Assembly (NCBI GenBank): GCA_025544715.1
Contig: GCA_025544715.1_4109.2
Strand: one strand, 5' to 3'
Origin: Escherichia coli
GTDB taxonomy: Bacteria > Pseudomonadota > Gammaproteobacteria > Enterobacterales > Enterobacteriaceae
Length of the DNA: 64,000 bases
Shown here: positions 7,146 to 62,680 of the stretch, piece by piece
Layout: each line of letters opens with the position of its first letter
Numbering within the stretch: position 1 is the first letter of the stretch
The notes under the pieces: generated by a model
Database searches by the model: none
Told to the model about the DNA's origin: nothing
The model's input: the letters and a program-made list of their open reading frames with translations, nothing else
Translations under genes and position numbers: made by a program

Positions 7146-8111
7146 TTAGAAATCTTCGTATTCGTACCCTTTTGCAAGTACTAGCTTCTTAAGCTTTTGC
7201 ATAGCTTCACTGTACTTTCGATGTATTGATGAACGGGATTTAACATATTTTCCATTATCATCAACAAAACCATTATCAGCAATCTCACGAAGCGTTTCAG
7301 GTTCATATTCACCTAGACCATGAACACGCTGGATAATCTCACGTTCTTTAGTACTCAATTCGTTAGTCAGTTCATTGATAGCATAACGTAAAGGTGCACG
7401 AATACTATCAACATTGAGGTTAAAATCAGAAGCAGGTGAATGAATAATGTCACCTAGTGTACCATCTGTAACACCGTCTAATGGTGCATCCAGTGAAGTG
7501 TATTCGCTTTGAAATAACAAACAATTATTAACATGCTGAATCTCAATCCCAGTACCCTCTGAGATTATTTCAGGAGTTGGGCGAACACCATGTTTACGCA
7601 TATATTCTTGGCAGAATCTTTTTACTTTGATCTTATGAACACTCATATAACGTGGGAAGTGTACCATATAGTTAGCGTCAGAACTTTCGTTATAAACTGT
7701 CATGTAAATACTAGAAGAAGCATAGGTAATGAACTTCACATTCTTATTAAGATCAAAGGTTTTTAGTGCTCTCATGAACCCCTCAACACCATATGAAATC
7801 TTATCTTCAAATGGGATATAACAAGTACATTTACTTGCTACATCAATAATAAGTCCATAATTGTAACGAACTAACAGTTCAGTGTTTTTCTTTACATTGA
7901 TACCAGCTTGAATATCACGAATTAGATCTTCATTGGTAACATTTTGTGGTCGCTTAAGTGTAATATTATATTTGAAACTGCTTTGTACTTTACCTTCATT
8001 TTCATCTTTATCTTCAACGAAATCTAAGGCTTCTAGTGTGTTGACTTCTTCATTAGCAAAACATTCATCCAGAACTTCTTCGGCAATTGTATTTAAATCA
8101 AGCTTTTTCAC
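7146..8111 (-). CDS. RNA polymerase sigma factor, sigma-70 family (321 aa)
   Basis: region 2-like GFMRALKTFDLNKNVKFITYASSSI and region 4-like LSTKEREIIQRVHGLGEYEPETLREIAD. Confidence 0.6.
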   Translation of the reverse strand: MKKLDLNTIAEEVLDECFANEEVNTLEALDFVEDKDENEGKVQSSFKYNITLKRPQNVTNEDLIRDIQAGINVKKNTELLVRYNYGLIIDVASKCTCYIPFEDKISYGVEGFMRALKTFDLNKNVKFITYASSSIYMTVYNESSDANYMVHFPRYMSVHKIKVKRFCQEYMRKHGVRPTPEIISEGTGIEIQHVNNCLLFQSEYTSLDAPLDGVTDGTLGDIIHSPASDFNLNVDSIRAPLRYAINELTNELSTKEREIIQRVHGLGEYEPETLREIADNGFVDDNGKYVKSRSSIHRKYSEAMQKLKKLVLAKGYEYEDF

Positions 8112-21653: not shown

Positions 21654-21718
21654 GAACCTTAGACCTCATAATATCCATTATGATATTATTTATTGTTCCA
21701 AGGTTCATAGTTAATTTG

Positions 21719-21802
21719 CTGGTAGTACTGGAGTCGAACCAGTCTTGTCATTTCTGACACGGATTAACAGTCCGTTGCATAAGGCCGATATGCTAACTAC
21801 CA
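21719..21802 (-). tRNA. tRNA, anticodon GUU as read (Asn), but with a long class-II variable arm; identity uncertain
   Basis: hand fold: 7-bp acceptor, D-arm GCAT/ATGC, anticodon stem ACGGA/TCCGT with loop CTGTTAA, 15-nt variable arm, T-arm ACTGG-TTCGACT-CCAGT. Confidence 0.5.
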
Positions 21803-21814
21803 TTTGTTTTAAAT

Positions 21815-21894
<80 letters not shown>

Positions 21895-21897
21895 GTA

Positions 21898-22391
<494 letters not shown>

Positions 22392-22753
22392 ATCACCAAC
22401 TTTAATTAAAAAAATGGATGGTGACGCGTTTAAACGCCGCTGTTAATTCAGCTTTATAACCACCCGTTTTAACTTACCTTTCGGCTACCTTGACGTGGGG
22501 CGTACAGGCTACTAAAAGCAACTTCTGTAAACATATTTCCACGCCTTACCATTTTAAATAAAAGTCCATCCGGTTTTCCAGTTTGGTGAAGGACTGTCAC
22601 CTCTAGTTTCAACCTGCTAGTCAAGTAATAATTGCCTATCGTCCAATTATCAAACCCGTCTAGGTTAACATTCACCACTTCCTAGAGTACCAGAGATCTT
22701 GTTCTGGATAGCATCGACGTAACTTACACCATATACGTCTGATTGTGGAATTC
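22392..22753 (-). ncRNA. candidate promoter-driven structured RNA or long leader (~360 nt)
   Basis: ORF-free, visibly GC-richer stretch immediately downstream of a consensus promoter. Confidence 0.25.
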
Positions 22754-22778
22754 ATTATATCAGTACTGAACTATTTAG

Positions 22779-22782
<4 letters not shown>
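22754..22782 (-). promoter_or_regulatory. sigma70-consensus promoter (TTGACT-17-TATAAT), cassette copy 2
   Basis: near-identical to the cassette at 21995-22023. Confidence 0.55.
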
Positions 22783-23191
<409 letters not shown>

Positions 23192-23204
23192 GCTTTTTTT
23201 TTAA

Positions 23205-23365
<161 letters not shown>

Positions 23366-23369
<4 letters not shown>

Positions 23370-23526
23370 ATTCGTACCAGTAGTTCAATTAAGTACATTT
23401 CATATGCTGGATCGTTGATAAGTTTATCATACAGATGTGGCTCTGAAATGAATTCCCAATGATACTCTAACCACTTACCAAAACCTGCATATCTAAAATT
23501 AATGTCATTCATCCATTCTTCATGTG

Positions 23527-23530
<4 letters not shown>
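23366..23530 (-). CDS. MTHEEW small-protein family member (54 aa)
   Basis: hand translation MTHEEWMNDINFRYAGFGKWLEYHWEFISEPHLYDKLINDPAYEMYLIELLVRI. Confidence 0.45.
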
Positions 23531-23790
<260 letters not shown>

Positions 23791-23794
23791 TATT

Positions 23795-23910
<116 letters not shown>

Positions 23911-23927
23911 ATGTGATGTCCCATTAT

Positions 23928-24146
23928 TTATGCAAGTGCTTTAGATACACCGACACCAATAATTCCAGTGATAGCGATATGGATATTGACAAGTTGATTA
24001 CTATCATATGGGTTTGTTTCTGTAATAACCAATGTTGTATCATTGACTAAAACCACAGTGCCTTTTACACGATACCCATGTAGTAGTACTTGAACCTCAT
24101 CTTCAGGTTTTAATGATTGAATAACTTCAAATAAAGTTGTTTCCAT
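23928..24146 (-). CDS. hypothetical protein (72 aa)
   Basis: ORF track. Confidence 0.35.
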   Translation of the reverse strand: METTLFEVIQSLKPEDEVQVLLHGYRVKGTVVLVNDTTLVITETNPYDSNQLVNIHIAITGIIGVGVSKALA

Positions 24147-24162
24147 TTTTTATATTCCTTGT

Positions 24163-24345
24163 TTAGTTTTGATTATTTGATTTTCTAAATGCCAGTTCGC
24201 ATATAAACCAAGGTTTTCTGGTATCCAAAACATATGACCTGAAAAGATTTTCATCTCTTAAGATATCATAATGTACCTGACGAATGCCATTTCCAAAGCA
24301 ATCATGTTCTTTATGCTGTTTGGACATCCATTCTTCGTGTGTCAT
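24163..24345 (-). CDS. MTHEEW small-protein family member (60 aa)
   Basis: track ORF 24163-24363 trimmed to the internal MTHEEWMSKQHKEHDCFGNGIR start. Confidence 0.4.
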   Translation of the reverse strand: MTHEEWMSKQHKEHDCFGNGIRQVHYDILRDENLFRSYVLDTRKPWFICELAFRKSNNQN

Positions 24346-24346
24346 T

Positions 24347-24682
<336 letters not shown>

Positions 24683-32800: not shown

Positions 32801-33331
32801 TTATTCAAGTATAGTAATTTCAATTAAACGAATTTCGATAAACTCGTTTTCAGTTTCCCATGACGTGCCAAATTTCTTTTCAAGTTCAGATTTCACATCA
32901 CTTTTAAATTTTCCCATAGTATTAGGAATAATTTGTTTGGTTAATTTGTCGTAACCACAATAAAACATAGGTTTCTCCCTTCGAGATATTAGCTGAACAA
33001 AATCTTTTGGATATGCAGGTATGTTATGCATCACTTCATGAATACACTCAGTACTTGAATCTTGTACTTTGTAGATTACATTAAGTTTACCTCTGAAATT
33101 TGCGGTCATATCAACAATAGTTCCTTTACCCGATTTAAGTAAAGTTCCATTCTTTGAATGAGAGCAATAAAATACCTCATCACCAATATTAGGATAATAC
33201 AAATTAAATTCTAATTCAGATTTTACAGCCAGCCGTTTGAAACTTTCTGTACGTTTTATATAAGTTTGGTATTTGTTTATGTTCAAAAGAATATCTCTCT
33301 TAGTAAATGTGATATAACTGGCATAGTCCAT
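32801..33331 (-). CDS. hypothetical protein (176 aa)
   Basis: ORF track. Confidence 0.45.
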   Translation of the reverse strand: MDYASYITFTKRDILLNINKYQTYIKRTESFKRLAVKSELEFNLYYPNIGDEVFYCSHSKNGTLLKSGKGTIVDMTANFRGKLNVIYKVQDSSTECIHEVMHNIPAYPKDFVQLISRREKPMFYCGYDKLTKQIIPNTMGKFKSDVKSELEKKFGTSWETENEFIEIRLIEITILE

Positions 33332-34143
33332 CCATTCCCAAGCATTTTGTATGCTTGTGTCTTACTAGACACTTTAAAGAAATCTTCAGGAACACCCTGT
33401 AATTTACAACATTCTACTACACTTAAGTGTCTATAGTCAATATTTCTTTTGCCATTCTCTAATAGATATTGACGATTAATCACTGGATCACGAAACACCA
33501 ATTGTCGTCTGGATTTATTAAAGTACTGGTTACAATCACCACCTTTAAAATAGTTAGCATCTATACAGTACGAAGCGGTTCTGTCAGTGTACCAACCATC
33601 TTCAATAATATCTTGAAGTTTAGGTGCATTGGATAATGCAGGTGGTATAAAAAGCTTATCAGTACTGTACCAGTAATATCTCTGCCTGAAGTGAGGCGTA
33701 TAATGCTGGGAGTTTATCAGTACTGGCGTGATTCCTAAAATACTATTAATGTATTCTTTGAAATCTTCCTTCATTTTGACATTTTCAAACAGAAATTTCA
33801 AGTTAGGATTGAGACTTTTGATATGATCAAAAATTTCAACCATTACTAAAAATAACTGCCCACGTATATCATTTAAACCACCCTGTTTACCTGCAACTGA
33901 CCAGGCTTGGCATGGGAAACCACCCATTAATAAATCTATTTTGTCCCACTCAATATCCCATTCTCTCCACTTAGTTACATCACCCAATTGGATAATATCA
34001 GGAAAGTTAGATTGAGATTCAGCTATTGCGTACTTATCAATTTCGGATGAATAATATTTTTCAACTGGGATACCAGCATCTTGCAATGCCATATATCCCA
34101 CACTCATTCCATTAAAAAGAGAAAGTACTCGGATAGGTTTCAT
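33283..34143 (-). CDS. DNA (cytosine-5)-methyltransferase (286 aa)
   Basis: C5-MTase motifs: LSLFNGMSVG (motif I-like), GGFPCQAWS (PCQ), ENV, HFRQRYYW, MLGNGWTMPV (motif X-like). Confidence 0.75.
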   Translation of the reverse strand: MKPIRVLSLFNGMSVGYMALQDAGIPVEKYYSSEIDKYAIAESQSNFPDIIQLGDVTKWREWDIEWDKIDLLMGGFPCQAWSVAGKQGGLNDIRGQLFLVMVEIFDHIKSLNPNLKFLFENVKMKEDFKEYINSILGITPVLINSQHYTPHFRQRYYWYSTDKLFIPPALSNAPKLQDIIEDGWYTDRTASYCIDANYFKGGDCNQYFNKSRRQLVFRDPVINRQYLLENGKRNIDYRHLSVVECCKLQGVPEDFFKVSSKTQAYKMLGNGWTMPVISHLLREIFF

Positions 34144-38523: not shown

Positions 38524-38718
38524 TTATTCCTTATTTAGATTGCTAAAAATACGAAGATTGCGGTTTGCTTTAAACTGTTTCAAATCACCAAATCTATCAT
38601 CAACGATGAAAGTTGCTGATTTCTTTGACTGACATATTGTACAAATCAACATACCTTGTATTGTATACTCAGTTGAGCAATTTGTACAGTACTTTTTTTC
38701 ATAAAGTTCAGTACTCAT
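38524..38718 (-). CDS. small zinc-ribbon-like protein (64 aa)
   Basis: CTNC ... CTIC cysteine pairs. Confidence 0.35.
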   Translation of the reverse strand: MSTELYEKKYCTNCSTEYTIQGMLICTICQSKKSATFIVDDRFGDLKQFKANRNLRIFSNLNKE

Positions 38719-39050
38719 AAAACCTTCACATCAGTACGTTTTTCTCTTTGTTCTTTTTTAACCTCATCAGTTCTAGTATCTTCTAATTGTAACACAACTT
38801 CTTTTAGAATGTCAACATCAATTGTTGCTTCTACATATTGATAGTCGTTTACACCAAAAACATACTTTACTGCAACCCATACACGGTTATACCATTTTAA
38901 AAAAGGATTTAAACGCATACTTATCAGACATTGACCAAGTTTATCATCTCCATATTCCTCTGTCAAGTCAAATTGTGCAATGTGAACGCAATGCTCCATT
39001 TTATCGCCACAAGAACAACGTAAAATATACTCTTTACTATCTTCACTCAT
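38715..39050 (-). CDS. hypothetical Cys-containing protein (111 aa)
   Basis: ORF track; CSCGDKMEHCVH. Confidence 0.4.
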   Translation of the reverse strand: MSEDSKEYILRCSCGDKMEHCVHIAQFDLTEEYGDDKLGQCLISMRLNPFLKWYNRVWVAVKYVFGVNDYQYVEATIDVDILKEVVLQLEDTRTDEVKKEQREKRTDVKVL

Positions 39051-39628: not shown

Positions 39629-39859
39629 TTATTCCTTTGTATATGCGTATGGTAAAAATAAAACCTCTGCATTAGGAATGCATTGTGCCAATCCTTCAAC
39701 AATAGATTTGTTTTTATTACATTGCCAAACTTTAGTAATTTTATGTCTAAATACTTTTTTATCAACGACAATCCAGTACATGTCCATTTTAACAGTACTG
39801 TTATCAGATGGTGTTAGTAAAGTATCGATGTCATATGTATCAAAGATTTTGTCGTTCAT
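39629..39859 (-). CDS. hypothetical protein (76 aa)
   Basis: ORF track. Confidence 0.35.
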   Translation of the reverse strand: MNDKIFDTYDIDTLLTPSDNSTVKMDMYWIVVDKKVFRHKITKVWQCNKNKSIVEGLAQCIPNAEVLFLPYAYTKE

Positions 39860-40118
39860 ATAATCTCCTAATAAAGTATTCTCGATTCTCTCTTATATAC
39901 CCAGATACACAGTTAGTTGTGGCTTGGTTAGTGAATGAAATCTCACTATTGGACACACCATTTGAATCACACAAAGGACATATTCCCATGTACATGGGGG
40001 TCGGGTAGGTGTCCAATTTGTATTTTTCATTACACACCATGTACTGCTGTGGTAATACATCTAATATTATTTCATATTCTTCATCAAACACCTTGACACA
40101 TACCCAACATTTATTCAT
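39840..40118 (-). CDS. hypothetical Cys-rich protein (92 aa)
   Basis: CWVC ... CPLCD pairs suggest zinc binding. Confidence 0.4.
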   Translation of the reverse strand: MNKCWVCVKVFDEEYEIILDVLPQQYMVCNEKYKLDTYPTPMYMGICPLCDSNGVSNSEISFTNQATTNCVSGYIRENREYFIRRLYERQNL

Positions 40119-40602
40119 TATTGTTTTCCTTTAACACCGTTCTTATGTCTTCGAATGTTTTAACAAACCAATCATGTTCGTCGGATACATCTACAACTTT
40201 ACCACCATATACATAGTAATGGTAAAAAGGCAATTTGCTTTTTCTTAATCTTTCGGCTAACTCTGGATTTTGAATTATCTTAGCACAAATAGCATCTTGG
40301 ATTATTGAGATACAATCATCTGTCATTTCAATTCGATCATGCATATATTTGTTAGCGGCGGCCTTTGCTGCTGCCCCATATACTTTTCTAAGGTCATCAT
40401 GTTTTTGACCAGTTAAAAACCAAAAGTAAAATGTTTCAACTGATGGGAACCATCCATATGGTTCAAGTTTGAAGCTGTGCGAAGAAAAGTTAGATAGATC
40501 TCTACCTAACTTCGTTCTGGCTTTACTATAAATGTTAATATGTCGGTATCCATCATCAGTAGGGTCAATGAAGTTAAATGACTCTTCTGGGAATTCAAAC
40601 AT
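40111..40602 (-). CDS. possible YbiA/NADAR-like domain protein (163 aa)
   Basis: HINIYSKARTKLGRDLSNF...PSVETFYF resembles YbiA INFYS...FSNF region, by recall. Confidence 0.35.
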   Translation of the reverse strand: MFEFPEESFNFIDPTDDGYRHINIYSKARTKLGRDLSNFSSHSFKLEPYGWFPSVETFYFWFLTGQKHDDLRKVYGAAAKAAANKYMHDRIEMTDDCISIIQDAICAKIIQNPELAERLRKSKLPFYHYYVYGGKVVDVSDEHDWFVKTFEDIRTVLKENNNE

Positions 40603-40604
40603 AA

Positions 40605-40958
40605 TTATTCTTCTTCTCCTGAAGGAGTTCCACGTAGTTTATCAAAATCAACCCAAATACCATGCTGGTTTTTAAATCGACATTTCTCATAGTACCAACT
40701 ATAGTCTGTTTCAACACCTTGTGAAATAGAACGTACACTACAATCATACATATTATATAAATGTTCCCTGACAATATATGTATTAATCAGTACAACGAAT
40801 AATACAATAATACCACAGATTTTAGGATGATCCATAATCAAGTCAAGTACTGATCTAGTTTCAGAACTATCAATCTTACTTCTACAAATAGCAACAATTT
40901 TAAGAACAGCGAATGATACCAGTAACGAAATTACAATAACACTTAAATAAATTAGCAT
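40605..40958 (-). CDS. hypothetical membrane protein (117 aa)
   Basis: N-terminal TM helices. Confidence 0.4.
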   Translation of the reverse strand: MLIYLSVIVISLLVSFAVLKIVAICRSKIDSSETRSVLDLIMDHPKICGIIVLFVVLINTYIVREHLYNMYDCSVRSISQGVETDYSWYYEKCRFKNQHGIWVDFDKLRGTPSGEEE

Positions 40959-42149: not shown

Positions 42150-42704
42150 TTATAGTTTAATTGATTCTTGAATACCAGTATCCATTGCTTTCTTGGTACG
42201 TGTATCAGATACTACTGTACAAAGGTGTTCAATATTTTCACTTGGAAACGTATTCGAATCAAGAATTTTGGAATTCCAGAAGCCTTTGCGGAACTTAGCA
42301 TAATCAGTACACTGGTCAATTTTCATTTTCTGAAGATTGTTGAACTTTGTACGTCCTGTTTCAATTGTCACCATCAATTCCTGATAAATTTTAGGATCAA
42401 GATTTGGAACCTGTTGTTGAATCTGTGACATTACAAACTTCTGGTCAACACCTTCACGCCCTTTAAAGTATGATTCAATCGTTTCTTTCAACGCATCTTT
42501 ATACTTATCGGCTACTTGAACCTTATCTTGAATAGTAAGAGTATAATTGCTAAGTTGACTTTCTGATGCATCATAATACTTTTTAATGTTTCCTTCAAAC
42601 TCAACTGCACGATCATGTGCACCAACATACATACTAATAGAACCAAACACCATTAGTACGATAACTACCAAAATACCAATTAACGCAAGGAGTTTACCAT
42701 TCAT
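42150..42704 (-). CDS. membrane-anchored protein, possibly LemA-like (184 aa)
   Basis: single N-terminal TM helix then helical region; architecture recalls LemA. Confidence 0.3.
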   Translation of the reverse strand: MNGKLLALIGILVVIVLMVFGSISMYVGAHDRAVEFEGNIKKYYDASESQLSNYTLTIQDKVQVADKYKDALKETIESYFKGREGVDQKFVMSQIQQQVPNLDPKIYQELMVTIETGRTKFNNLQKMKIDQCTDYAKFRKGFWNSKILDSNTFPSENIEHLCTVVSDTRTKKAMDTGIQESIKL

Positions 42705-44570: not shown

Positions 44571-45707
44571 TTACTTGTTAGCTTTTTCGGCAATTTCACG
44601 AAGAGTGTCTTCCAGTTCATAGGAAAGTTGTGCAATTTCCTGTTTAGCACGTTCACGTTCCAATTTACCTTTTTTCTCTTCCTCAATAACTGCTTCAATA
44701 CTGTCAATCATCGTTTTATGTACATTACGCAAGGTTTTAATATCCACAATACCACGGTTGTTTGCCTTTGCTGCATCCAACATATTTGCTGCAACCATTT
44801 TAGAGTTAGTTTCCAAAAGACGGTTTGTCTCGTTGTCAATAAGATTACCCAGTTCATTATCCTTACGTTGACGCTCGGAAATCAACTGTTCAGCCAATTG
44901 AGACTTCCATGCTGGAATAACAACGGATTTTAAATCTTCAAACTTAGAAACAGTGTTCAAGTTTACTTTTTTCATACTCATCAAGCGTGGACCACTTAGT
45001 TCGCACATCATGATAAGACGACGAATCTTATCTTCTTGTTTAGAAAGTGCTTCACAAATCATCTTTTGCTCTTGAATAGCAAAAGAGTCTACATTTTTGT
45101 CTGCTTGCATTTCTACTAGTAATGCATCTTGTGTTTTAGTTACTTCTTCTAAACCAACTAATGTATCACGTAATTCAAACAAATATTCTTTGTTTTCATT
45201 ATATGCTTTATCAAGCCATTCACATTCTCCGTGCTGGCGATTAATACCAGTTTGAAGAGTTTTCATAATTTCATCAATTTGCTCTTTACTGTTTTTGTAC
45301 TGATCACCGACTTTCTGTTGAGCATTAACAAAGAATTTCTTAATACGACCAACAATTGATTTATCTTCTTGAAGACTGTCAATATCAACTGCACGAGTCA
45401 ACGTAAGAATTGTGGTGATTGATTTACCAAACTCGGTATTGTCATCTGTTACATTAACTTTAGACATAATTTCATCAGCCAGACGCCCAACAGCAGCACC
45501 AGCAGTTGTACCAACAGTATTGATGTTTTGAACTGTTAGAGACATAGTATTTCCCTTAACATCTTTCAGTACTGGTAGTGATTTTGTAGTTTGGTTAAAA
45601 ATATCACTTGCATCAATTGTATGACCTTTAGTCGCAGTTTTAGTAGTACGTTTTGCTGATTTAGCTGCGGTGGATGCTTTTTTAGGATTGATTTCTTTCT
45701 CGGACAT
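44571..45707 (-). CDS. coiled-coil protein, possibly TelA-like (378 aa)
   Basis: size and charged helical composition recall TelA family; unverified. Confidence 0.45.
   Translation of the reverse strand: MSEKEINPKKASTAAKSAKRTTKTATKGHTIDASDIFNQTTKSLPVLKDVKGNTMSLTVQNINTVGTTAGAAVGRLADEIMSKVNVTDDNTEFGKSITTILTLTRAVDIDSLQEDKSIVGRIKKFFVNAQQKVGDQYKNSKEQIDEIMKTLQTGINRQHGECEWLDKAYNENKEYLFELRDTLVGLEEVTKTQDALLVEMQADKNVDSFAIQEQKMICEALSKQEDKIRRLIMMCELSGPRLMSMKKVNLNTVSKFEDLKSVVIPAWKSQLAEQLISERQRKDNELGNLIDNETNRLLETNSKMVAANMLDAAKANNRGIVDIKTLRNVHKTMIDSIEAVIEEEKKGKLERERAKQEIAQLSYELEDTLREIAEKANK

Positions 45708-61617: not shown

Positions 61618-62680
<1,063 letters not shown>

What the first reader, a model, noticed from the sequence alone, without database searches (positions are those of the whole stretch)
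40111..40602. Possible YbiA/NADAR-like protein, a candidate ADP-ribosylation reversal enzyme
The N-terminal third resembles the YbiA/NADAR core. NADAR enzymes have been reported to remove ADP-ribose from guanine, so a phage copy could counter DarT-like DNA ADP-ribosylating defence toxins. The similarity is by recall only.
Basis: partly seen in the sequence, partly recalled or inferred. Interest (0 to 1): 0.45.

Follow-up and report, generated by a model that had tools for sequence, protein, structure and literature searches.

The report
Divergent NADAR enzyme in jumbo phage
The gene encodes a real but very divergent member of the NADAR family, enzymes that cut ADP-ribose off DNA or RNA bases; a giant E. 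coli phage probably uses it to undo a bacterial defence, but it lacks one residue that the studied relatives need.

The parts
40111..40602 (-). CDS of 163 aa, the ortholog of phage 121Q gp73 (AIT13970.1, annotated 'hypothetical protein'). It is a single-domain protein with the NADAR (YbiA-like) fold.
40501..40554 (-). Residues D17-R34, the clade-specific N-terminal motif DG-x-x-HIN-x-YSK-x-x-T-x-LGR. It covers strand beta1 and a basic loop. The 'YS' is shared with YbiA and the 'SK..T.LG' with the Geobacter DarG1-type NADAR.
   Evidence: Column counts in 95 stand-alone members: D17 89, G18 94, H21 91, N23 95, Y25 93, S26 94, K27 76 (+8 R), T30 88, G33 95, R34 78 (+10 K).
40486..40497 (-). Residues L36-S37-N38-F39, the 'LSNF' motif common to NADAR families.
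   Evidence: It aligns to FSNF of YbiA, LSNF of Phytophthora NADAR and LSNF of T4 gp30.3. Conservation is 87-94 of 95.
40435..40437 (-). E56, the invariant Glu at the start of helix 55-63. It corresponds to E43 of Phytophthora NADAR and E88 of E. coli C7 NADAR, which position the distal ribose.
   Evidence: E is found in 95 of 95 members. The residue's role comes from PMC11543638.
40414..40416 (-). L63, at position E+7, where other NADAR families carry the diphosphate-binding Lys (Pn K50, C7 K95). The Lys is absent here.
   Evidence: K/R at this column: 4 of 95 in this clade, K 104 of 108 in the gp30.3 family and K 93 of 93 in the YbiA family. The helix from E56 to L63 is continuous in the model.
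40351..40365 (-). K80-A81-A82-A83-N84. K80 corresponds to Pn K75 / C7 K115. A83-N84 replace the clade-consensus G-R, which corresponds to Pn G78-R79 (a diphosphate contact).
   Evidence: K80 is present in 93 of 95 members. Position 83 is G in 85 and A in 9; position 84 is R in 54, K in 17 and N in 4. The residue mapping was checked against the paper's numbering. The AAAKAAAN/E motif is kept in the Asteriusvirus and Alcyoneusvirus orthologs.
40213..40221 (-). H128-Y129-Y130 at the start of the last beta-hairpin. H128 aligns with the signature His of gp30.3-type 'phage NADARs', the slot held by the catalytic Glu in YbiA-type and Asp in DarG1-type enzymes.
   Evidence: H is found in 94 of 95, Y129 in 92 and Y130 in 93 members. 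The hhalign alignment to the gp30.3 consensus 'LkHS' is. The family definitions come from PMC11125620.
40603..40620 (-). The 5' junction. It holds a purine-rich stretch with AGGAG (40616-40620) and the upstream gene's stop TAA (40605-40607), 2 nt before the ATG. This indicates translational coupling.
   Evidence: Read directly from the sequence.
40111..40118 (-). The 3' junction. The ATG of the next gene (39840-40118) overlaps the end of the NADAR CDS by 8 nt.

Best explanation
The gene encodes a stand-alone, single-domain enzyme of the NADAR superfamily. NADARs are ribosyl N-glycosidases, also called ADP-ribosyl-glycohydrolases. It belongs to a large, almost exclusively viral clade that is closest to the T4 gp30.3/AdfN 'phage NADAR' family but distinct from it.

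Proposed mechanism, by analogy with the Phytophthora NADAR-ADP-ribose structure and E. coli C7 NADAR mutagenesis: the cleft between helix 55-63, helix 76-84 and the last beta-hairpin binds a ribose that is N-linked to a nucleobase. Invariant E56 holds the ribose hydroxyls. H128 takes the place of the catalytic Glu/Asp and promotes hydrolysis of the C1''-N bond. K80 and the basic loop (K27, R34) contact the nucleic-acid or phosphate part of the substrate. The base is restored and ADP-ribose is released.

In infection, the gene is expressed from an operon of small accessory genes. Its most likely job is that of an orphan-antitoxin-like counter-defence enzyme: it removes ADP-ribose that host ADP-ribosyltransferases such as DarT1 put on phage DNA or RNA, so that replication and transcription can continue.

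Shown here: the ORF, purifying selection, the fold, superfamily homology, the residue pattern, the domain fusions, and the genomic co-occurrence with other ADP-ribose-processing genes. Inferred: catalysis, the identity of the substrate, and the counter-defence role.

For: Sequence: family profiles against the PDB give YbiA and Phytophthora NADAR as the best hits. hhalign gives 98.5% (E 1.5e-14) to the gp30.3 family and 96.7% (E 5.4e-10) to the YbiA family. That is as strong as gp30.3 against YbiA itself (97.6%). My gp30.3 HMM directly hits 16 of 20 clade members from cellular genomes. Pfam PF08010 and PF08719 and PADLOC PDC-M42C give sub-threshold hits to other members.

Residues: E56 is in 95/95, K80 in 93/95 and H128 in 94/95 members.

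Context: of 79 multidomain members, 19 carry DUF4326, 15 a YAcAr SLOG domain, 6 Macro, 6 DUF488-N3a and 1 Metallophos. All of these are domains of the NAD+/ADP-ribose network (PMC9503650, PMC7824862). Phage 121Q carries unfused DUF4326 (gp497), a Macro-like protein (gp544), Metallophos (gp461), SIR2 next to a Nudt16-like Nudix (gp476/477) and another Nudix (gp540). gp73 is its only NADAR.

Selection: dN/dS is 0.043.

Precedent: tested representatives of all four recognised NADAR families remove guanine-ADPr, and T4, Bas32 and Bas60 phage NADARs neutralise DarTG1 (PMC11825919, PMC11125620, PMC12945103).

Independent note: the GenBank record of the 72%-identical Klebsiella phage Muenster ortholog carries 'Hhpred NP_415319.1 98.2% probability', and NP_415319.1 is YbiA.
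Against: The diphosphate-binding Lys (C7 K95, Pn K50), whose mutation abolishes efficient hydrolysis, is absent from the clade: K/R in 4 of 95 members.

In the 121Q/RaK2-like subgroup the G-R that contacts the diphosphate is A-N. The loop carrying Pn D130 appears to be deleted, although that part of the alignment has low confidence.

The single sequence matches no curated NADAR model.

No ADP-ribosyltransferase gene lies next to the gene in the window. None was found among 10 immediate neighbours of bacterial or MAG members. The clade therefore has no toxin-antitoxin signature.

The clade co-occurs with a canonical NADAR in one polypeptide (P0073) and in one gene cluster (L096). This argues for a non-redundant, possibly different, specificity.

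No member of this clade has been assayed as far as I could check. The tested AdfN-Bas60 is a canonical NADAR and phage Bas60 has no member of this clade.
Confidence: 0.5

Rival explanations
1. It has the same fold and chemistry but a small-molecule target. The enzyme degrades low-molecular-weight ADP-ribose derivatives, such as immune signals or toxic metabolites made by host TIR, SIR2 or ART effectors, rather than ADP-ribosylated nucleic acid. It would work alongside the phage's Macro, Nudix, DUF4326 and SLOG-type proteins.
For: The recurrent fusions to SLOG (YAcAr/DprA-like), Macro, DUF4326 and DUF488-N3a are the architectures from which Iyer, Burroughs and Aravind proposed that phage NADARs mainly process diffusible ADPr derivatives (PMC9503650; PMC7824862). 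121Q encodes SIR2, Nudix, Macro-like and DUF4326 proteins. The clade shows no ART or toxin-antitoxin linkage.
Against: [quoted passage not shown] Every phage NADAR tested so far acts on base-linked ADPr and counters DarTG1 (PMC11825919). K80 is invariant, and its counterpart in C7 NADAR (K115) is needed for rescue from DarT1 but not for catalysis. Loss of the diphosphate contacts is as awkward for free ADPr derivatives as it is for DNA-ADPr.
Confidence: 0.25
2. It acts on N-ribosyl substrates that lack the ADP diphosphate. Candidates are phosphoribosyl- or ribosyl-base remnants left on nucleic acid after Nudix or phosphoesterase cleavage of ADPr adducts, or a YbiA-like phosphoribosyl N-glycoside metabolite. 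The enzyme would be the last step of a multi-enzyme clean-up.
For: The clade has lost the diphosphate Lys. The 121Q subgroup has also lost the G-R diphosphate contact. The clade is fused to predicted phosphate-processing domains (DUF4326/DUF488-N3a, Metallophos). It co-occurs with a canonical NADAR. YbiA itself hydrolyses phosphoribosyl N-glycosides of the riboflavin pathway (cited in PMC11543638).
Against: This is purely inferential. 75 of 95 members keep a K/R in the loop just after the helix (positions 61-69), which could replace the missing Lys. The gp30.3 family also varies at the Arg position yet is active on G-ADPr.
Confidence: 0.17
3. It is catalytically dead or non-enzymatic. A NADAR-fold protein would bind ADP-ribosylated targets, or bind and inhibit an ADP-ribosyltransferase toxin, without hydrolysis. 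Alternatively it is a virion or structural component.
For: A residue essential in C7 NADAR is missing. PMC11825919 mentions another phage NADAR protein that does not need enzymatic activity. A Taipeivirus homolog is annotated 'virion structural protein'.
Against: E56 and H128 are conserved in essentially all of more than 90 diverse members, and the polar motif residues are strictly kept. That pattern is typical of an active site. The clade is fused to other enzymes. The 'structural' label is an unverified annotation, and PHROG lists the family as of unknown function.
Confidence: 0.08

Closest known systems
T4 gp30.3 / AdfN ('phage NADAR' family, Pfam PF08010)
   Same: Both are stand-alone phage proteins of about 150-160 aa with the NADAR fold. 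It is the best profile-profile match (98.5%, E 1.5e-14, residues 19-157 against 1-152). Both share LSNF, the Glu, the A-K motif and the His in the last strand. [quoted passage not shown]
   Different: This protein does not reach the PF08010 threshold: no hit for it, and 20-27 bits against a cut-off of 36 for relatives. It lacks the E+7 Lys that 104 of 108 gp30.3 members have. It has its own invariant motifs (DG..HIN.YSK..T.LGR, WYW, HYY, W145). Its host range is different: jumbo phages, Ackermannviridae, Vibrio phages and others. It is frequently fused to DUF4326, SLOG or Macro. It has not been tested experimentally.
E. coli YbiA (PDB 2B3W; Pfam PF08719 NADAR)
   Different: YbiA has Lys at E+7, Glu in 'VEH' and the D..WG loop. 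This protein has L63, H128 and a shortened loop. YbiA is a housekeeping riboflavin-intermediate N-glycosidase in a LexA-controlled operon, whereas this is a phage accessory gene.
Phytophthora nicotianae NADAR with ADP-ribose (PDB 8BAU)
   Different: The counterparts of K50, D130 and, in this protein, R79 are missing. Phytophthora NADAR also carries extra N-terminal and inserted elements.
DarG1 (the DarT1-associated NADAR antitoxin; E. coli C7, Geobacter lovleyi 8BAT)
   Different: There is no adjacent DarT gene. This protein has His rather than Asp in the last strand, no N-terminal beta-beta-alpha extension and no K95 equivalent.
AdfN-Bas60 (bas60_0111, annotated 'putative YbiA-like N-glycosidase')
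   Same: It is a phage-encoded orphan NADAR in a large E. coli myovirus that also carries macrodomain, sirtuin and DprA-like genes.
   Different: It is a canonical NADAR: it hits the YbiA-family HMM at 4.2e-7, has E...K at +7 and 'VEASPYD', and gives no hit to this clade's HMM.

Membership tests
NADAR superfamily (YbiA-like fold) | [quoted passage not shown] | tested here: met
NADAR superfamily (YbiA-like fold) | Statistically significant sequence-profile relationship to established NADAR families | tested here: met
   hmmsearch against the PDB gives E 5.5e-5 to 9.5e-5 for the best hits. hhalign gives 96.7% to the YbiA family and 98.5% to the gp30.3 family.
NADAR superfamily (YbiA-like fold) | Score above the Pfam PF08719 gathering threshold (35.1 bits) | tested here: not met
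   No PF08719 hit at E <= 10 for this protein. The relative P0031 scores 12.7 bits.
NADAR superfamily (YbiA-like fold) | Conserved Glu on the first core helix (Pn E43 / C7 E88) | tested here: met
   E56 is found in 95 of 95 members and aligns.
NADAR superfamily (YbiA-like fold) | Diphosphate-binding Lys seven residues after that Glu (Pn K50 / C7 K95) | tested here: not met
   The position is L63. K/R occurs in 4 of 95 clade members, against 104 of 108 (gp30.3) and 93 of 93 (YbiA).
NADAR superfamily (YbiA-like fold) | Catalytic polar residue (Glu, Asp or His) in the last strand | tested here: met
   H128 is found in 94 of 95 members and aligns with the gp30.3 His. The register relative to the YbiA Glu is uncertain by one residue.
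NADAR superfamily (YbiA-like fold) | N-glycohydrolase activity on base-linked ADP-ribose | not testable with these tools
   This needs a biochemical assay.
Phage NADAR / gp30.3 / AdfN (PF08010) | Score above the PF08010 gathering threshold (36 bits) | tested here: not met
   No hit for this protein. Relatives reach 20.4 and 27 bits. My own gp30.3 HMM does not hit it either.
Phage NADAR / gp30.3 / AdfN (PF08010) | His replacing the conserved Glu in the last strand | tested here: met
   H128 aligns to 'LkHS' of the gp30.3 consensus.
Phage NADAR / gp30.3 / AdfN (PF08010) | Neutralises DarTG1 during infection | not testable with these tools
   This needs phage genetics on DarTG1-carrying hosts.
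DarG1-type antitoxin NADAR (BC4488 family) | Encoded next to a DarT1 ADP-ribosyltransferase toxin | tested here: not met
   There is no ART domain among the 25 families listed (of 28 found) for the 106 window ORFs. None is annotated in 121Q. None was found among 10 neighbours of bacterial or MAG members.
DarG1-type antitoxin NADAR (BC4488 family) | Asp in the last strand (C7 D171) and an N-terminal beta-beta-alpha extension | tested here: not met
   The last-strand residue is His (H128). Only about 20 residues, mostly low-confidence, precede beta1 in the model.
YbiA-type housekeeping N-glycosidase | Glu in the last strand ('VEH'), the D..WG loop, and a riboflavin or LexA-operon context | tested here: not met
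   The protein has H128-Y-Y and a shortened loop and sits in a phage accessory-gene context.

The most novel reading that the evidence does not exclude
This clade (121Q gp73, PHROG 652, more than 2000 cluster representatives) would be a fifth NADAR family with a rebuilt active site: Glu plus His, no diphosphate Lys, and clade-specific D17, H21, K27 and R34. Its natural substrate would not be intact guanine-ADP-ribose. It could be another base adduct, or the (phospho)ribosyl-base stump left after Nudix or phosphoesterase and DUF4326 processing. In that case large phages would carry a multi-step repair pathway for ADP-ribosylated nucleic acid, with this enzyme as the final N-glycosidase.
Probability: 0.2. 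Interest if true: 0.65.

Novelty: new variant of a known kind. Interest (0 to 1): 0.4.

Why it matters
DNA and RNA ADP-ribosylation by DarT and related toxins is an active front in phage-bacterium conflict. NADAR enzymes are the only known erasers of guanine-linked ADP-ribose.

This gene shows that a large, almost purely viral NADAR clade is invisible to the standard annotation models. In my searches it was found in 542 phage records and 2128 protein-cluster representatives.

The clade differs from all four recognised families at a residue they need for diphosphate binding. If it is active on G-ADPr, the requirement for that Lys has to be revised, and a large set of jumbo and Ackermannviridae phages gains a predicted anti-DarT function. 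If it is not, it points to a different substrate in the same pathway.

Either way it gives a cheap, well-defined biochemical and genetic test. It also gives a reason to annotate these 'hypothetical proteins' as NADAR-like.

Tried and rejected
1. Single-sequence searches gave nothing on NADAR. Pfam gave only a sub-threshold Sf6 small-terminase hit (E 0.015, 15.7 bits against a cut-off of 27). The PDB phmmer search returned the same terminase at E 0.4-0.6. I rejected this as chance similarity of a helical segment (residues 52-106), because profile and fold searches give NADAR only. NCBIfam returned no family. PADLOC returned nothing for this protein, but also nothing for the T4 gp30.3 control, so that search says nothing about DarG1.

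2. PHROGs places the protein in phrog_652 and phrog_11222, both of 'unknown function'.

3. Neighbourhood analysis of 80 viral loci found only lineage-specific synteny and no universal partner gene.

4. A toxin-antitoxin arrangement was looked for and not found.

5. The 'WWE domain' annotation of the upstream membrane protein in phage ph0011 would have been an ADP-ribose-binding neighbour. Pfam does not support it.

6. The 'virion structural protein' label near the locus in phage JP4 belongs to another gene, the ortholog of window 38715-39050.

7. Supplements of PMC9503650 and PMC11825919, which would hold lists of phage NADARs, are not held in the library. The paper on the rhodanese-phosphatase superfamily (DUF4326/DUF488) could not be found.

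8. I checked whether the experimentally tested AdfN-Bas60 belongs to this clade. It does not. AdfN-Bas32 was not checked.

9. Model coordinates are not exposed by the tools. I therefore could not test whether another basic side chain fills the missing Lys site.

Full report
**What is there.** The window is 99.6% identical over the tested 3 kb to Escherichia jumbo phage 121Q (Asteriusvirus, 348.5 kb). Coordinates 40111-40602 hold a minus-strand ORF of 163 aa with an ATG start. It corresponds to 121Q gp73 (AIT13970.1), annotated "hypothetical protein". It lies in a long co-directional array of small genes; 106 of 110 ORFs of at least 70 aa in the window are on the minus strand. The upstream gene stops 2 nt before its ATG, after a purine-rich AGGAG stretch. 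The next gene's ATG overlaps its end by 8 nt. Terminator-like hairpins at 42140-42122 and 37370-37352 may bracket the transcription unit. Against the phage ph0011 ortholog there are 42 synonymous and 11 non-synonymous differences, giving dN/dS 0.043. It is a real gene under selection.

**Is it NADAR-like?** On its own the sequence is not recognisable:
- Pfam gives only a sub-threshold Sf6 small-terminase hit.
- NCBIfam and PADLOC give nothing.
- PHROGs puts it in families of unknown function.
- BLASTP against E. coli YbiA gives 23% identity over 111 residues, E 0.016 for that one comparison.

With homologs the picture is clear. A first search gave 32 relatives. An exhaustive profile search gave 2128 cluster representatives at E <= 1e-3, of which 662 were at <= 1e-30. 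Profiles of the family searched against all PDB sequences return YbiA (2B3W, E 9.5e-5 and 6.8e-5) and Phytophthora NADAR (8BAU, 2.4e-4 and 5.5e-5) as the best hits. Geobacter DarG1-type NADAR (8BAT) appears at E 0.58-0.7, and the only non-NADAR hit is at E 0.4 in the second search.

Local profile-profile comparison used 95 stand-alone members. It gives 98.5% probability (E 1.5e-14; residues 19-157 against 1-152) to the T4 gp30.3 family and 96.7% (E 5.4e-10) to the YbiA family. The control, gp30.3 against YbiA, gives 97.6%.

One correction: the whole protein is a NADAR domain, not only its N-terminal third. The similarity had already been noted in public.

**Which NADAR?** The literature recognises four families, distinguished by the polar residue in the last strand (PMC11125620, PMC12945103):
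- general NADARs;
- YbiA-type, with Glu;
- DarT1-associated DarG1, with Asp;
- phage gp30.3, with His.

This protein has a nearly invariant His (H128, 94/95) that aligns with the gp30.3 His. gp30.3 is also its best profile match. It is nevertheless not a gp30.3-family member by the curated test. PF08010 does not hit it, and relatives reach only 20-27 bits against a cut-off of 36. My own gp30.3 HMM misses it too, although it hits 16 of 20 more typical clade members.

The clade has its own invariant signature: D17-G18, H21, N23, Y25-S26-K27, T30, G33-R34, W59-Y60-W61, H128-Y129-Y130, K135 and W145.

**Catalytic residues.** I mapped the residues of the Phytophthora NADAR-ADPr structure and of E. 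coli C7 NADAR mutagenesis (PMC11543638) through the alignments. The register was checked against the paper's numbering.
- The ribose-positioning Glu (E43/E88) is E56, invariant in 95 of 95 members.
- K75/K115, which is needed for rescue from DarT1 but not for catalysis, is K80 (93/95).
- G78-R79 is G-R in the clade consensus but A83-N84 in this protein and its RaK2-like relatives.
- The diphosphate-binding Lys (K50/K95) sits seven residues after the Glu on the same helix. Here that position is L63. The clade has K/R there in 4 of 95 members, against 104/108 in gp30.3 and 93/93 in YbiA relatives.
- The loop bearing D130 appears to be deleted, although that part of the alignment has low confidence.
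- 75 of 95 members have a K/R in the loop just after the helix, which might compensate.

**Context.** The clade is essentially viral. It occurs in 542 phage records: jumbo phages, Ackermannviridae, Vibrio, Erwinia, Ralstonia phages and others. Only 20 loci turned up in 185,579 species genomes, and that scan used stringent motif patterns.

Of 79 multidomain members, 19 carry DUF4326, 15 a YAcAr SLOG domain, 9 a DprA-like SLOG hit, 6 Macro, 6 DUF488-N3a and 1 Metallophos. One 1415-aa protein carries a canonical NADAR and this clade's NADAR together with DUF4326. A MAG contig encodes this clade's NADAR, a DUF488/DUF4326-like protein, a canonical NADAR and a SLOG protein within 4.3 kb. These are the architectures that Iyer, Burroughs and Aravind reported for phage NADARs (PMC7824862, PMC9503650). 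At superfamily level the clade has therefore probably been seen before.

In the window itself no other NAD+/ADP-ribose domain was found. Elsewhere the 121Q genome has:
- an unfused DUF4326 (gp497, 6e-24);
- a Macro-like protein (gp544);
- a Metallophos protein (gp461);
- SIR2 next to a Nudt16-like Nudix (gp476/477);
- another Nudix (gp540).

It has no second NADAR. No ADP-ribosyltransferase lies next to the gene or next to 10 neighbours of cellular members. So it is an orphan, not part of a toxin-antitoxin pair.

**Mechanism and rivals.** The best-supported reading is an N-glycohydrolase that removes ribose-linked adducts from nucleobases, used as an orphan-antitoxin-like counter-defence. The precedent is strong. 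T4 gp30.3 (AdfN), AdfN-Bas32 and AdfN-Bas60 neutralise DarTG1, and tested representatives of all NADAR families remove G-ADPr (PMC11825919, PMC11125620, PMC12945103, PMC11833690).

The caveats are these:
- the missing Lys;
- co-occurrence with canonical NADARs, which suggests a non-redundant specificity;
- no tested member of this clade. I confirmed that AdfN-Bas60 is a canonical NADAR and that phage Bas60 lacks this clade.

The rivals are:
- degradation of diffusible ADPr-derived signals, the Aravind proposal;
- action on diphosphate-less (phospho)ribosyl-base remnants, as the last step of a clean-up pathway with Nudix, Metallophos and DUF4326;
- a non-catalytic binder.

I put about 0.5 on the counter-defence de-ADP-ribosylase reading and about 0.9 on the NADAR-fold assignment itself.

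**Verdict.** The function is unproven, and one of the residues it asked about is absent. This is a new variant of a known kind. It is worth a simple biochemical and genetic test but is not a surprise to specialists. Interest: 0.4.

Noticed in passing
window 62177-62680 (-) and 61618-62163 (-): The phage encodes a homolog of bacterial translation initiation factor IF3 (Pfam IF3_N 5.8e-16 and IF3_C 8e-14 in the ORF census; 121Q gp47 is annotated IF3). It sits next to a ClpS-like adaptor. The assignment of these hits to these ORFs rests on length and position, not on a separate scan.
   Followed up: partly
window 21718-24660 (-): There is a cluster of six tRNA genes: Asn-gtt, Met-cat, Ser-gct, Arg-tct, Ser-tga and Gly-tcc. 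ARAGORN calls tRNA-Arg(tct) at 23714-23790, where the 121Q record annotates tRNA-Leu(taa). The record's tRNA-Thr(tgt) was not found in the window.
   Followed up: no
window 40605-40958 (-): The gene just upstream encodes a 117-aa protein with two predicted membrane segments (per the Muenster record) and a conserved C-terminal motif. It is syntenic with the NADAR gene in 16 RaK2/121Q-like loci. The phage ph0011 record calls it 'WWE domain-containing', which would imply ADP-ribose binding, but Pfam gives no WWE hit even at E <= 1.
   Followed up: partly
121Q record KM507819: 220175-221475, 231100-231432, 259518-259994, 258289-258687, 212706-213497 (outside the window): The phage carries an unfused NAD+/ADP-ribose toolkit. 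It has SIR2 (4.6e-20) directly followed by a Nudt16-like Nudix (1.3e-18), and a DUF4326 protein (6e-24) wedged between nrdD and nrdG. It also has a Macro-like 'Appr-1-p processing' protein, another Nudix and a Metallophos protein.
   Followed up: partly
protein P0073 (1415 aa); locus L096 4001-8240: A canonical NADAR (PF08719, 1.1e-20) and this clade's NADAR occur in one polypeptide together with DUF4326. In a WOR-3 MAG contig, this clade's NADAR, a DUF488/DUF4326-like gene, a canonical NADAR and a SLOG gene lie within 4.3 kb. The two NADAR types are evidently not redundant.
   Followed up: partly
window 33283-34143 (-), 44571-45707 (-), 42150-42704 (-), about 7146-8111 (-): Other notable genes lie in the window. 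They are a C5 cytosine DNA methyltransferase (4.6e-38), a TelA-like protein (1.8e-37), a protein that 121Q annotates as LemA-like, and a sigma-70-family factor with regions 2, 3 and 4. The assignment of Pfam hits to these ORFs rests on length and position in the 121Q annotation.
   Followed up: no
locus L108 2968-4076 (Klebsiella phage FKP14, Taipeivirus): The homolog in this Ackermannviridae phage is annotated 'virion structural protein'. It is followed by a MazG-like pyrophosphatase and preceded by a histone-family DNA-binding protein. Whether members of this clade are packaged in virions is unknown.
   Followed up: no
loci L091, L097, L105: Clade members also occur on Pseudomonas replicons of about 1 Mb that are labelled plasmids (1,059,468, 971,445 and 948,989 bp). 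Their neighbourhoods show no obvious ADP-ribose genes.
   Followed up: no
locus L087 3030-4861 (Robinsoniella peoriensis): Here the clade NADAR is flanked upstream by a Thg1-like tRNA-His guanylyltransferase (1.4e-29) and downstream by a DUF488/DUF4326-like gene. This hints at an RNA-repair context in some members.
   Followed up: no
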